A stretch of DNA of 64,000 nt. It comes from Chrysemys picta bellii (lineage: Eukaryota). Shown piece after piece: positions 9,001 through 12,000 of this stretch (position 1 is the first letter of the stretch; each line of letters starts with the position of its first letter). The position numbers were made by a program. The stretch covers positions 26,722,001 through 26,786,000 of the forward strand of contig NC_088807.1 in the NCBI RefSeq assembly GCF_011386835.1, in the 5' to 3' direction.

Positions 9001-12000
9001 AGGGGATGGGGCTTAGGGTGCAGGGGGCTGGGGATGGGGGGATGTAGGGGATGGGGGGCACTGGGGGATGGGTCCAGCGTGGACAGTGAAGGTCAGCGGG
9101 GCACACGAGATGGAAGGTGCAGAGGGACGGGGGGGTGCAGGGGTTGGGGATGGGGGGCACTGGGGGGACGGGCTCGGCGTGGATGGGGAACATCAGCGGG
9201 CCTCGGGGTGCTGTGGGGGGTAGCAAAGGGGTATGGGTCTGGGACAGGGGTGATGGTCTGACAGGCACAGGGAGGCAAAGATCAGCTGGTGGAAGGGGGC
9301 AGGGGTCTGCAGGGACAGATGCATGGGGATGGGCGTGATGGGGGATGGGCCCGGCGGAGTGGGGGGCAGGGGTAATTCCTGGGGGGCCCAGCTGGGGGGG
9401 CCTGGCCCGCGGCCTGACCCCTGTTTACCCCCCCCCCCGCCCCCCTCGGTGCAGGCGTGTTCCGGGAGGCCACGACAGATTTCAGCGTGGACGCCCGGGC
9501 GCTGGGGACAGCTGGTGGGCCCCACGTGAAAACCCGGGTGTCCAACCCCTCGGGGAACCTGACCGAGGCCTTTGTGCAGGACCTGGGCGACGGCACGTAC
9601 CGTGTGGAGTACACCCCCTACGAGGAGGGTGAGCCAGGGGCCGGGGCATGGGGGGAGGGGAGCAGGGGTGGGACGGAGCCCTGACCCCACCCTCTCCTCT
9701 CCTCTCCTTCCTCCCCCCCCCCGGCAGGCGTCCACTCCGTTGACGTGACCTACGACGGGAGTCCTGTGCCCAACAGCCCCTTCCGGGTGCCGGTCACCGA
9801 GGGCTGCGACCCCACCCGGGTCCGAGTGCACGGGCCAGGCCTCCAGAGCGGCACCACCAACCAACCCAATCGCTTCACGTGGAGACCAGGTCAGGGGCCG
9901 GGGGGCCTGGCCCCGCTCAGGGGTCCCATCTCGGGGGGGACGCGTTGGCACCGCTCTGGGGTCATGGGGGGGAGGGGGAGCTTGGGGGGGGGGGGGTGTC
10001 GCGGGGGGGACGTTGGTACCGCTTGGGGGGGAGGGGGGCATTGGCATCGCTCAGGGGGGTTGCAGGGGCCTTGGCGCTGCTCGGGGGTCCTGGCTCGGGG
10101 GGTTGTAGGATGGGGGGGGGGGGGCCTTGGCACCGCTCGGGGGGGGGTTTGCGGGGGCCTTGGCACTGTTCAGGGGTTCCGGCTCGGGGGAGGGGGGTCC
10201 CGGGGGAGAGGAAGAGGAGCGCTGGCACCACTCTGGGGTCGTGGGGGGGGGGGGAAGGACGGGGGGCATTGGCACCACTCTGGGGTCCCCGCTTGGGGGG
10301 AGGTTCTGGGGGGAAGGAGGGGGGGCGCTGGCACTGCTCCAGAGTCCCGGGGGGGGGCGCATTGGCACCGCTCAGGCTCTCTGCCCTGAGTGGCTGAGCC
10401 CCATTGTGCTGCTCTCTCATCCCCCCCCCTCCTTCTCCCCCAGGGGTGCCGGCACAGGGGGCCTGGGCCTGGCCGTGGAGGGCCCCTCCGAAGCCAAGAT
10501 GTCCTGCACTGATAACAAGGACGGTAGCTGCTCGGTGGAATACGTCCCCTACGAACCCGGCACCTACAGCCTCAACGTCACCTACGGCGGGCACCAGGTG
10601 CCAGGTATGGGGGCAGGGTGTGGGGCTGGGCCGTGGGGCACCGAGGGCGGGGCGAAGCTTAGTCTGTGTGAGTGAGGACTGGCCCGCAGTGGGTCTGGGT
10701 GAGGGGGCAGGACCTGGGCTGTGGGTGCCCTGCAGGCAGGTGATGTGAGGGGCTGGGGGTGCCGCAGGGGCAGGGCTGGGGGCATGGCCTCAGTTTCCCC
10801 CTATTTCCCCCCCCCCCTCCCCGGCAGGGAGCCCCTTCCAGGTGCCGGTGCACGATGTGGTGGACTCATCCAAGGTGCTGTGCTCGGGGCCAGGACTGAC
10901 GCCGGGCGTCGTGCGGGCCAGCGTACCCCAGACCTTCTCCGTCGACACCAGCCAGGCGGGCGTGGCCCCCCTGCAGGTCAAGGTGCAGGGCCCCAAAGGT
11001 GAGTGCCTGCTGCTGGCGGGGGGGAGGAAAAGGGGAAACTGAGGCCCGGCCCGGACCCCCTGATCCCCAGCATCTCCCTCCCCCAGGCGTGGTGGAGCCG
11101 GTGGAGGTGGTGGACAATGCCGACGGCACCCAGACGGTGAGCTACGTGCCCAGCCGTGAGGGACCCTACAGCATCGCCGTGCACTACGGAGACCAGGAAG
11201 TGCCACGCAGGTACGGGGGGTGCTGGCCAGACGGCTTGTGCTGCTTGGGGGAGGTGGGACTGGTGGGATCTATAGGGGGTGAGGCCAGGGCACCATGCCC
11301 AAGAAAGAGGCTGGGAGTTGGGGCAGCAGGACCAGGCTGGCCTGGGTGTAGGGAGCCAGGCATGGGCACAGAGGGGTGGCCATCCAGCAGAGACCTCGTC
11401 CCCACTCCAGAGGGGAGCAGTGGGGCCACGGCCTCCCCCCCCGGCCGGCACTGACCCCCTCCCCCCGACCTCCCTCCTCCAGCCCCTTCAAGGTGAAGGT
11501 TCTGCCCACACATGACGCCAGCAAAGTGAAGGCCAGCGGCCCGGGGCTCACACCACCGGGGTCCCGGCCAGCCTGCCTGTGGAGTTCACCATTGACGCCA
11601 AGGACGCCGGCGAGGGGCTGCTGGCCGTGCAGATCACGGTGAGCGGGCGGGAAGGGGCTGCCGGAGGGTGGGGAGGGGGGTCTGTTCTGTTCATCGCCCC
11701 CGGGACGCCGGGGAGGGGCTGCTGGTGGTGCAGATCACGGTGAGCGGGCGGGAAGGGGCTGCCGGAGGGTGGGGAGGGGGGTCTGTTCTGTTCATCGCCC
11801 CCAGGACGCCGGCGAGGGGCTGCTGGCCGTGCAGATCACGGTGAGCGGGCGGTAAGGGGTTGCCGGAGGGTTGGGAGGGGTGTCTGTTCTCTGTTCATTC
11901 CCCCCCGACGCCCCCAGGACGCCGGCGAGGGGCTGCTGGCCGTGCAGATCACGGTGAGCGGGAGAGGGCTGCCTGCAGCAGGGGAGCTGTGGGGGGGGGG

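What the first reader, a model, noticed from the sequence alone, without database searches (positions are those of the whole stretch)
11603..11955. Tandem duplication created two new in-frame 36-nt FLNA exon candidates ([12 protein letters not shown])
Seen: the last 36 nt of exon 28 plus its intron are repeated. Copies at 11805-11840 and 11918-11953 have a pyrimidine tract, a CAG acceptor and the native ACG|GTGAGC donor, are phase 0-0, and are identical to the exon tail. The copy at 11704-11739 has CGG instead of CAG and has diverged. The AAG|GAC (exon) versus CAG|GAC (next acceptor) microhomology explains the junction. Inference: a snapshot of exon birth by tandem duplication; inclusion would add one or two extra beta-strand segments to an Ig repeat (about repeat 14) without a frameshift. 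The two splice-competent copies are conserved while the incompetent copy has drifted.
Basis: partly seen in the sequence, partly recalled or inferred. Interest (0 to 1): 0.65.

Follow-up and report, generated by a model that had tools for sequence, protein, structure and literature searches.

The report
Tandem-duplicated exon end in turtle filamin A
In a draft-quality turtle genome sequence, the last 36 bases of one filamin A exon and the intron after it are repeated three more times. This creates two in-frame candidate mini-exons, but nothing available here shows that they are used or that the repeat is correctly assembled.

Summary
The 36-nt exon tail plus the first 9 intron bases occurs four times (11603, 11704, 11805, 11918). 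Three copies are identical and the copy at 11704 has 3 substitutions; chance expects none. The copies at 11805 and 11918 follow an AG and carry the native donor. The copy at 11704 follows GG.

The gene is the filamin A orthologue of a turtle, not human. The segment codes a loop plus the third beta-strand of Ig repeat 14.

"Exon birth" remains unproven, for four reasons:
- All 13 turtle filamin A models that cover the site, and all other named models scanned, lack a tandem second copy.
- The claim that competent copies are conserved while the incompetent one drifted is not statistically secure.
- The locus is 15-16% minisatellite, and at least four other arrays in the same gene also engulf exon edges.
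- The filamin exons carry at least six frame changes, so assembly quality is poor.

Most likely this is a real minisatellite-type duplication whose extra copies are mostly skipped. Real inclusion and assembly artefact remain live rivals. It is a new member of a known kind and of low to moderate interest.

The parts
11483..11638 (+). Filamin A exon coding the first half of Ig repeat 14. The finding calls it exon 28, which is human numbering and was not tested. In this assembly it contains one frame change.
   Evidence: tblastn with turtle and bird filamin A models. Translation. The exon tail matches residues 16-47 of solved filamin C domains 14-15, E 2.6e-14.
11603..11638 (+). Copy 1: the original 36-nt exon tail ([12 protein letters not shown]), followed by the native donor GTGAGCGGG.
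11639..11703 (+). Intron copy 1 (65 nt). It ends in GG, so there is no acceptor in front of copy 2.
11704..11739 (+). Copy 2: 3 substitutions in 36 nt (reads [12 protein letters not shown]). The donor is intact but there is no AG upstream.
11740..11804 (+). Intron copy 2 (65 nt), 64/65 identical to intron copy 1. It ends in AG. Its only yTnAy motif lies 10 nt from the 3' end.
11805..11840 (+). Copy 3: candidate 36-nt mini-exon, 36/36 identical to copy 1. It has an AG upstream and the native donor downstream. Its acceptor is the weaker of the two.
11841..11917 (+). Intron copy 3 (77 nt). It ends in AG, with a branch-like motif 20 nt from the end, as in the native intron.
11918..11953 (+). Copy 4: candidate 36-nt mini-exon, 36/36 identical to copy 1. 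It has the best splice context of the extra copies.
11954..12047 (+). The most diverged intron copy (94 nt), which runs into the acceptor of the next exon.
12048..12239 (+). The next filamin A exon (second half of Ig repeat 14). In this assembly it contains two frame changes.
   Evidence: Translation. Matches residues 52-94 of solved filamin C domains 14-15, E 4.8e-29. Pfam Filamin repeat, E 1.1e-12.
266..769 (+). Context: another array in the same gene (period 73/146). It copies an acceptor plus the first 11-23 nt of the exon that starts near 750. It has six decoy acceptors, 4 with AG and 2 with GG.
1880..2186 (+). Context: an array (period 115, 2.7 copies) that copies the intron's 3' end plus about the first 40 nt of the exon starting at 2157. 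Both decoy acceptors keep AG.
3699..4006 (+). Context: an array (period 53, 5.7 copies) of branch site, pyrimidine tract and about the first 12 nt of the exon starting at 4006. All five decoys have GG in place of AG.
16790..16854 (+). Context: an array (period 26, 2.6 copies) that copies the last ~11 nt of an exon plus its donor. One decoy keeps GT and one has lost it.

Best explanation
This is a minisatellite-type tandem duplication at an exon-intron junction of a turtle filamin A orthologue.

The unit is the last 36 nt of the Ig14 exon plus the following intron. It is bounded on both sides by AGGAC, so slippage or unequal exchange between these two short homologies can account for the first duplication. 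Further rounds and partial homogenisation would give four copies (inferred).

I think the extra copies most likely sit inside what works as one 409-nt intron (11639-12047). Normal mRNA would then join the first donor to the last acceptor. The copies at 11805 and 11918 would be mostly skipped pseudo-exons, giving at most minor in-frame +12 or +24 residue isoforms.

Shown: the duplication, its bounds, the frame, the splice motifs, the gene identity and the position in the fold. Inferred: the mechanism of origin and the splicing outcome.
For: - The array is far beyond chance, with 4 matches of a 45-mer against 0 in 100 shuffles.
- Unit bounds fall at AGGAC on both sides.
- The locus is dense in such arrays: 34 arrays of period 20 or more cover 16.0% of the window, and 17 cover 15.0% of the filamin part. 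Six of those 17 touch coding blocks. The five I read all contain exon-derived sequence.
- With about 64 exon edges and 15% array cover, roughly 10 edges inside arrays would be expected at random. This array is therefore one case of a general local process, not a special event (my arithmetic).
- Several of the other arrays carry decoy splice sites whose use would break the frame of an essential, highly conserved gene. Decoys in this locus must usually be ignored.
- No tandem second copy appears in any named model scanned.
- The 12-residue motif is nearly invariant across vertebrate filamin A and forms a loop plus a full strand in the Ig14 fold. Constitutive lengthening would be unusual.
Against: - All four donors are identical from -36 to +9, and the last copy sits on an intact native-like 94-nt intron. 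From general splicing knowledge (recalled, not tested), short introns tend to be recognised across the intron and the donor nearest the acceptor is favoured. That would predict inclusion of the copy at 11918, and perhaps 11805, rather than skipping.
- The two candidate copies are 36/36 identical to the coding copy while their introns differ by 5-9 substitutions and several indels. This is what purifying selection on used exons would give.
- None of the turtle models is from a demonstrably identical species (best 96.5% identity). Their single copy may only mean that those genomes lack the array.
- No read or transcript data were available.
Confidence: 0.45

Rival explanations
1. Assembly artefact. 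The duplication, or its copy number and the small differences between copies, would be a product of assembling error-prone reads over a G+C-rich repeat. The real genome would then have one copy, or a different number.
For: - At least six frame changes lie inside filamin A exons. Three were read directly in the two exons that flank the array and three were found by tblastn. Three of the six lie in or next to G/C runs of 5 or more.
- Only 56-62% of the expected filamin residues are recovered at 80% identity or better.
- A 10-N gap abuts a coding block and a 500-N gap lies near the window's end.
- The window has 591 G/C runs of 6 or more.
- All 13 turtle models covering the site have a single copy.
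Against: - The copies are not exact. The intron parts differ by substitutions and by indels of 2-18 nt in a graded pattern (copies 1 and 2 nearly identical, 3 intermediate, 4 most diverged). That pattern looks like history rather than a stutter of the assembler.
- Assemblers more often collapse than expand such arrays (recalled).
- Thirty-three other arrays in the window show similar divergence.
Confidence: 0.3
2. Exon birth. The array is real, and the copies at 11918 and perhaps 11805 are spliced into a substantial share of filamin A mRNA. This would add one or two extra loop-plus-strand-C segments to Ig repeat 14.
For: - Both copies are phase 0-0, free of stops and 36/36 identical to the coding copy, with donors identical through +9.
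- The acceptor before 11918 is built like the native one.
- The candidate introns of 77, 94 and 166 nt are in the range of a native intron of about 85 nt in the same gene.
- Exon part against intron part for copies 3 and 4: 0/36 against 9/72 differences, one-sided P = 0.008, uncorrected.
- The only copy without an AG is the only one that has changed.
Against: - No transcript evidence was available.
- No named model with a tandem second copy was found among those scanned.
- The other five pairwise tests are not significant.
- The 11704 copy's intron is 64/65 identical to intron 1 while its exon part has 3 changes. This fits patchy conversion better than drift after loss of function.
- The acceptor before 11805 has a branch motif only 10 nt from the splice site.
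- The inserted segment duplicates a core strand of a highly conserved Ig fold.
Confidence: 0.2
3. The whole locus is a decaying, unprocessed duplicate (pseudogene) of filamin A. On this reading the frame changes and the exon-edge arrays are real damage in a copy that is no longer expressed.
For: At least six in-exon frame changes, three of them not at long homopolymers. About 40% of coding residues are not recovered at 80% identity. There are several disruptive-looking arrays at exon edges.
Against: - Many exon blocks are 98-100% identical to other turtles' filamin A at the protein level.
- An RPL10-like exon lies downstream on the same strand, about 9 kb past the last filamin block. RPL10 near FLNA is the neighbourhood known for mammals; that synteny is recalled, not tested.
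- No second filamin A locus is known to me in turtles (recalled).
Confidence: 0.05

Closest known systems
Internal (intragenic) tandem duplication that multiplies a pre-existing intron together with flanking exon sequence. The examples are Arabidopsis TOUCH3 (Knowles & McLysaght 2006) and the survey of Gao & Lynch 2009. I saw both only as cited in passages of PMC4974935. The Gao & Lynch paper itself is not held.
   Same: A direct tandem copy of an entire intron plus adjoining exon sequence inside one gene. The splice signals are inherited ready-made from the parent junction.
   Different: [quoted passage not shown] There are four copies rather than two. Expression is unknown.
Intron gain by tandem duplication of an AGGT-containing exon segment. 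This is the Rogers 1989 model, with vertebrate ATP2A1 (Hellsten 2011) and fission-yeast 24-bp arrays where one intron spans two or four duplicates (Zhu & Niu 2013b). I saw all of these as cited in passages of PMC4974935.
   Same: Tandem duplication at a splice-type motif (AG|G here). My preferred reading, one intron spanning all duplicates, matches what is described for the fission-yeast arrays.
   Different: No new intron position is created here. An existing intron is multiplied, and the duplicated exon piece could become extra coding sequence rather than disappear into an intron.
Tandem duplication of whole exons giving alternatively or mutually exclusively spliced exon pairs
   Same: An in-frame duplicated coding segment with its own splice sites next to its parent.
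   Different: This is a partial exon (36 of 156 nt). The copies are identical, so they offer no functional alternative. Nothing enforces mutual exclusion.
Intronic minisatellites or variable-number tandem repeats that influence splicing. A genome-wide human catalogue exists in PMC10078293; I saw only the search listing and the start of the abstract.
   Same: A G+C-rich array with a unit of about 100 bp next to a splice site, in a locus where 15-16% of the bases are such arrays.
   Different: The unit here contains a complete donor, an acceptor and an in-frame coding piece. Polymorphism is unknown.

Membership tests
Filamin A orthologue (identity of the host gene) | Exons encode filamin/ABP280 Ig-like repeats | tested here: met
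   Pfam PF00630 matched 4 of 5 exon pieces (E 1e-12 to 3e-55). The 33-residue exon tail alone gave no Pfam hit. Solved filamin domains match both exons that flank the array.
Filamin A orthologue (identity of the host gene) | Closer to filamin A than to filamin B or C of related species | tested here: met
   For the 45-residue exon piece: turtle models 98%, bird filamin A 91-95%, squamate filamin C 84-87%, bear filamin A 82%. Named turtle filamin A models are 91-96.5% identical over 230-1043 residues in ungapped blocks. One 98% turtle model is labelled filamin C by its source, but it carries the filamin A sequence.
Filamin A orthologue (identity of the host gene) | Conserved neighbourhood | tested here: inconclusive
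   A Ribosomal_L16/L10e (RPL10-like) match lies in an ORF at 34851-36062 on the same strand. The FLNA-RPL10 neighbourhood of mammals is recalled. Other neighbours were not identified.
Human sequence | Near-identity to human filamin | tested here: not met
   37 of 43 residues are identical to human filamin C domain 14. The best matches are turtles. G+C is 65-74% over most of the window. I do not take this contig for human.
Tandem (internal) exon-intron duplication | Direct head-to-tail copies containing exon sequence and an intron | tested here: met
Tandem (internal) exon-intron duplication | Copies keep the reading frame and usable splice signals | tested here: met
   Two of the three extra copies have AG upstream and the native donor downstream, and are 36 nt, phase 0-0, with no stop. 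The third lacks AG.
New (born) exon | Inclusion in mature mRNA | not testable with these tools
   No transcript data were available. No named model among those scanned (154 + 15 + 49) has a tandem second copy.
New (born) exon | Sequence constraint on the new copies beyond that on neighbouring intron | tested here: inconclusive
   Differences in the exon part are 0/36 against 3-9 substitutions in the intron parts. Fisher p = 0.03-0.29 for the three pairs of identical copies, uncorrected and not independent.
Minisatellite / variable-number tandem repeat | Unit of tens to about a hundred bp, G+C-rich, in tandem | tested here: met
   Period 101-113, 3.5 copies. It is one of 34 such arrays in the window.
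Minisatellite / variable-number tandem repeat | Copy number varies between individuals | not testable with these tools
   No collection of vertebrate genomes or reads was available.
Whole-exon tandem duplication with mutually exclusive splicing | A complete exon is duplicated and the copies have diverged | tested here: not met
   Only the last 36 of 156 nt are copied, and the two candidate copies are identical to the parent.

The most novel reading that the evidence does not exclude
The array is real. This turtle would then make filamin A with one or two extra copies of the loop-plus-strand-C segment in Ig repeat 14. That would be an exon duplication caught before any divergence, in one of the most conserved cytoskeletal proteins.

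It would also be one visible outcome of a wider process in G+C-rich turtle genes. In that process minisatellite expansion repeatedly copies splice junctions, and decoy acceptors are then silenced by AG-to-GG changes. Of 16 decoy acceptors in four arrays of this gene, 8 have GG, from at least three separate events.
Probability: 0.15. Interest if true: 0.5.

Novelty: new member of a known kind. Interest (0 to 1): 0.25.

Why it matters
If the array is real and the copies are used, it would be a rare snapshot of a protein domain being lengthened by a junction-spanning duplication with no frameshift, in a gene under strong constraint. It would also give a natural test of how much extra strand an Ig-like filamin repeat tolerates.

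If the array is real but the copies are skipped, it illustrates how a spliceosome ignores perfect copies of its own sites. That bears on how splice sites are chosen in short, G+C-rich introns.

If it is an artefact, it is a caution for gene annotation in G+C-rich, repeat-dense parts of draft reptile assemblies.

Tried and rejected
- **Colinear chaining of tblastn hits.** My own script, meant to map all exons, dropped many true blocks, so I did not use its counts. I used simpler pairwise criteria instead and a partly hand-made list of 32 coding blocks. The exon-edge expectation is therefore rough.
- **Four unnamed database proteins at 95-98% identity to the exon piece.** These turned out to be ORFs read through genomic exons of other, non-turtle species. 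They say nothing about this array.
- **Search with the exon tail read through into the first intron copy and copy 2.** This aimed to find the same junction in independent data. It returned 110 hits among 354 candidates. Hits at 80% identity or more cover at most 67% of the query, and hits covering 86-98% are only 47-63% identical, so no independent copy of the junction was seen. Only proteins of 117-2000 residues were searched. Unnamed hits were not fetched because their origin could not be told.
- **Test of conservation of the exon parts against the intron parts.** The result was weak and I do not use it as proof.
- **Pfam scans of long ORFs elsewhere in the window.** These gave only an RPL10-like match and a sub-threshold reverse-transcriptase match. 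Most long ORFs are chance products of G+C-rich repeats.
- **Gao & Lynch 2009.** The paper is not held.
- **The one model with two copies of the motif.** In the eel model P0249 the copies lie 165 residues apart inside a duplicated multi-exon block. That is a different thing.
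Full report
**What is there.**
Reading 11300-12300 shows a filamin exon ending at 11638 in ...CAGATCACG|GTGAGCGGG. The next exon starts at 12048 after ...CCCCCCAG.

Between them, the last 36 nt of the exon and the following intron are repeated.
- Tandem Repeats Finder gives one array at 11601-11962: period 101, 3.5 copies, 90% matches, score 560.
- A 45-nt probe (36 exon bases plus 9 intron bases) hits at 11603, 11704, 11805 and 11918 with 0, 3, 0 and 0 mismatches. 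It hit nothing in 100 shuffles.
- The units are 101, 101, 113 and 130 nt.
- The copies at 11805 and 11918 follow AG and a pyrimidine-rich tract. The copy at 11704 follows GG.
- Every copy is followed by the native donor.
- All copies are 36 nt, phase 0-0 and free of stops. The copy at 11704 reads Val for Ala and has one silent change.
- The unit is bounded by AGGAC on both sides.

**Which gene and which organism.**
I searched the spliced model exon by exon.

- The 45-residue piece of the next exon matches solved human filamin C domains 14-15 best: 7ouu, E 4.8e-29, residues 52-94, 37 of 43 identical.
- The exon tail matches residues 16-47 of the same chains. Both pieces therefore lie in Ig repeat 14.
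- In the protein collection the best identities are turtle models at 98%. Bird filamin A follows at 91-95%, squamate filamin C at 84-87% and bear filamin A at 82% (114 hits among 126 candidates).
- Named turtle filamin A models are 91-96.5% identical to the window over 230-1043 residues in ungapped blocks. None is near 100%.
- An RPL10-like exon lies downstream on the same strand.
- G+C is 65-74% in most 2-kb bins.

I do not take this contig for human. It is the filamin A orthologue of a hard-shelled turtle. The window covers residues of about 351 to the end of the protein, at about 81-25580 on the + strand. The label "exon 28" is human numbering and I did not test it.

**Where the segment sits in the fold.**
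I predicted the structure of a named gecko filamin A fragment (P0043). Its Ig14 differs from the window's by one residue in the stretch examined. The prediction used a 22-row alignment. Block-mean pLDDT was 81-94 over residues 61-160.

In that model the 12 residues are a loop (88-93) plus a complete strand (94-99), the third strand of the domain. One or two included mini-exons would therefore add one or two further loop-plus-strand segments. How the domain would accommodate them is not tested, because the lengthened model was not built.

**Do any gene models contain the extra copies?**

| Set scanned | Result |
|---|---|
| 154 named models (37 of the 114 hits; 117 of the 120 listed; unnamed hits dropped) | 133 have exactly one copy of the motif (up to 3 substitutions allowed), 21 have none, 0 have two or more |
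| 15 listed members of the turtle filamin A cluster (54 members, 40 read, 15 listed) | 13 have one copy directly followed by the next exon's residues; 2 short fragments lack the region |
| 49 further named hits | 48 have one copy; one eel model has two copies 165 residues apart in a duplicated multi-exon block |

No tandem second copy was seen. This is weak evidence. Models can skip what they cannot align, and none is shown to be from the same species.

**The neighbourhood changes the picture.**
- The window has 34 arrays with period 20 or more, covering 16.0% of its bases. Seventeen of them cover 15.0% of the filamin part.
- Six of those 17 touch coding blocks. I read five of the six, and all five contain exon-derived sequence.

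Besides the finding's array, the four others I read are:
- **266-769** copies an acceptor and the first 11-23 nt of an exon, with donor-like GTGAG after them.
- **1880-2186** copies an intron end and about 40 nt of an exon.
- **3699-4006** copies a branch site, tract and about 12 nt of an exon, always with GG for AG.
- **16790-16854** copies an exon's last ~11 nt and its donor.

With about 64 exon edges and 15% cover, about 10 such overlaps would be expected at random. The finding's array is therefore not an exceptional event. It is, however, the only one of the five that makes a complete, in-frame, stop-free mini-exon with both sites.

The pseudo-exons of 266-769 are 11-23 nt and mostly not multiples of three. 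The decoy acceptors of 1880-2186 have no donor. Their use would break the frame of an essential gene. So either decoys in this locus are ignored, or the arrays are not as assembled. In both cases, good splice motifs here do not by themselves argue for use.

**Is there a signature of selection?**
- The exon parts of copies 1, 3 and 4 are identical. Their intron parts differ by 5, 3 and 9 substitutions and 12-39 nt of gaps.
- Fisher tests of exon against intron give p = 0.157, 0.289 and 0.028. The one-sided binomial values are 0.056, 0.158 and 0.008, uncorrected and not independent.
- Copy 2 shows the reverse pattern: 3/36 in the exon part against 1/65 in the intron, binomial P(>=3) = 0.018.
- That pattern fits patchy conversion between neighbours at least as well as drift after loss of function.

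**Splice context.**
- The only yTnAy motif before 11805 lies 10 nt from the splice site. Before 11918 it lies 20 nt away, and in the native intron 19 nt.
- The candidate introns would be 166, 77 and 94 nt. Skipping everything gives 409 nt. A native intron of about 85 nt exists nearby.
- From general knowledge of splicing (recalled), identical donors closer to the acceptor and an intact native last intron would favour inclusion of the copy at 11918. This is the main argument against my preferred reading.

**Quality of the sequence.**
- The two exons flanking the array carry three frame changes, and three more were found in other exons.
- Three of the six are in or beside G/C runs of 5 or more.
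- Only 56-62% of the expected residues are recovered at 80% identity or better.
- A 10-N run abuts a coding block and a 500-N run lies near the end. I left both as they are.

An assembly artefact in copy number, or in the small differences between copies, cannot be excluded. The graded divergence of the intron parts argues that the array itself is real.

**Verdict.**

| Reading | Confidence |
|---|---|
| Real minisatellite-type duplication at a splice junction, extra copies mostly skipped | 0.45 |
| Assembly artefact | 0.30 |
| Exon birth with real inclusion | 0.20 |
| Decaying duplicate locus | 0.05 |

In kind, it belongs with internal tandem duplications that multiply an existing intron with adjoining exon sequence. 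It also relates to the tandem-duplication models of intron and exon origin. I saw these only as passages of PMC4974935, which cite Rogers 1989, Gao & Lynch 2009, Knowles & McLysaght 2006, Hellsten 2011 and Zhu & Niu 2013b. I did not read those papers themselves.

I ran four literature searches and found no description of this array or of exon-edge arrays in turtle filamin A. These searches were not exhaustive, and supplements were closed.

**What stayed unchecked.**
- No vertebrate genome, read or transcript collection was available.
- Unnamed protein hits were not used, since their origin could not be told.

**The virus-like stretch.**
The stretch that the operators mention lies about 30 kb downstream and has no bearing on the finding. 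It is described, and only described, under Noticed in passing.

Noticed in passing
window 42000-48554: An endogenous retrovirus of gammaretrovirus type, + strand, in a low-G+C patch. It has direct terminal repeats of about 585 nt at 42000-42584 and 47973-48554, 97-98% identical.

The gag-like ORF is open as one piece (42864-44378, 504 residues; Gag_p30 and zinc knuckle). pol is broken: only an RT C-terminal/RNase H piece and an integrase C-terminal piece were recognised, in two separate ORFs. No protease, RT N-terminal part or integrase core was found among the six ORFs scanned. env is represented only by a C-terminal coat-protein match.

The internal region of about 5.4 kb is short for such an element, so large parts are missing. 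I did not determine the exact numbers of frameshifts, stops and deletions. The element was described only.
   Followed up: partly
window 266-769, 1880-2186, 3699-4006, 11601-11962: Decoy acceptors inside the four acceptor-bearing exon-edge arrays of filamin A: 8 of 16 keep AG and 8 have GG in its place (2 of 6, 0 of 2, 5 of 5, 1 of 3). This reflects at least three separate A-to-G events at the same splice-site base. It could be selection against decoys, GC-biased change, or base-calling error.
   Followed up: partly
whole window: Very high minisatellite density: 34 arrays with period 20 or more cover 16.0% of 64 kb. They include a 57/115-nt array at 50174-50937 (13 copies, 94-96% matches) and a 44-nt array at 31327-32519 (26 copies). 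There are 591 G or C runs of 6 or more, up to 18.
   Followed up: no
window 6124-6271: The 10-N run at 6262-6271 directly abuts a filamin A coding block (6124-6261), so an exon is interrupted by a gap. It was left unfilled.
   Followed up: no
window 34851-36062 (+): The end of this chance-long ORF matches Ribosomal_L16/L10e (E 1e-08, residues 343-399). It is probably an RPL10 exon downstream of filamin A.
   Followed up: no
window 19355-20098 (+): A low-G+C patch inside a filamin A intron contains an ORF with a sub-threshold reverse-transcriptase match (RVT_1, 20.8 bits against a cut-off of 29.6). It is probably a decayed retroelement.
   Followed up: no
protein P0249 (named eel model): This gene model contains a block of about 165 residues spanning the end of Ig13 and most of Ig14 twice in tandem. 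It is either a multi-exon duplication or an assembly duplication in that species.
   Followed up: no
protein P0018 (named lizard filamin C model): The model carries 14 extra residues between the motif and the next exon's residues. This looks like a retained piece of intron at the same junction in a paralogue.
   Followed up: no
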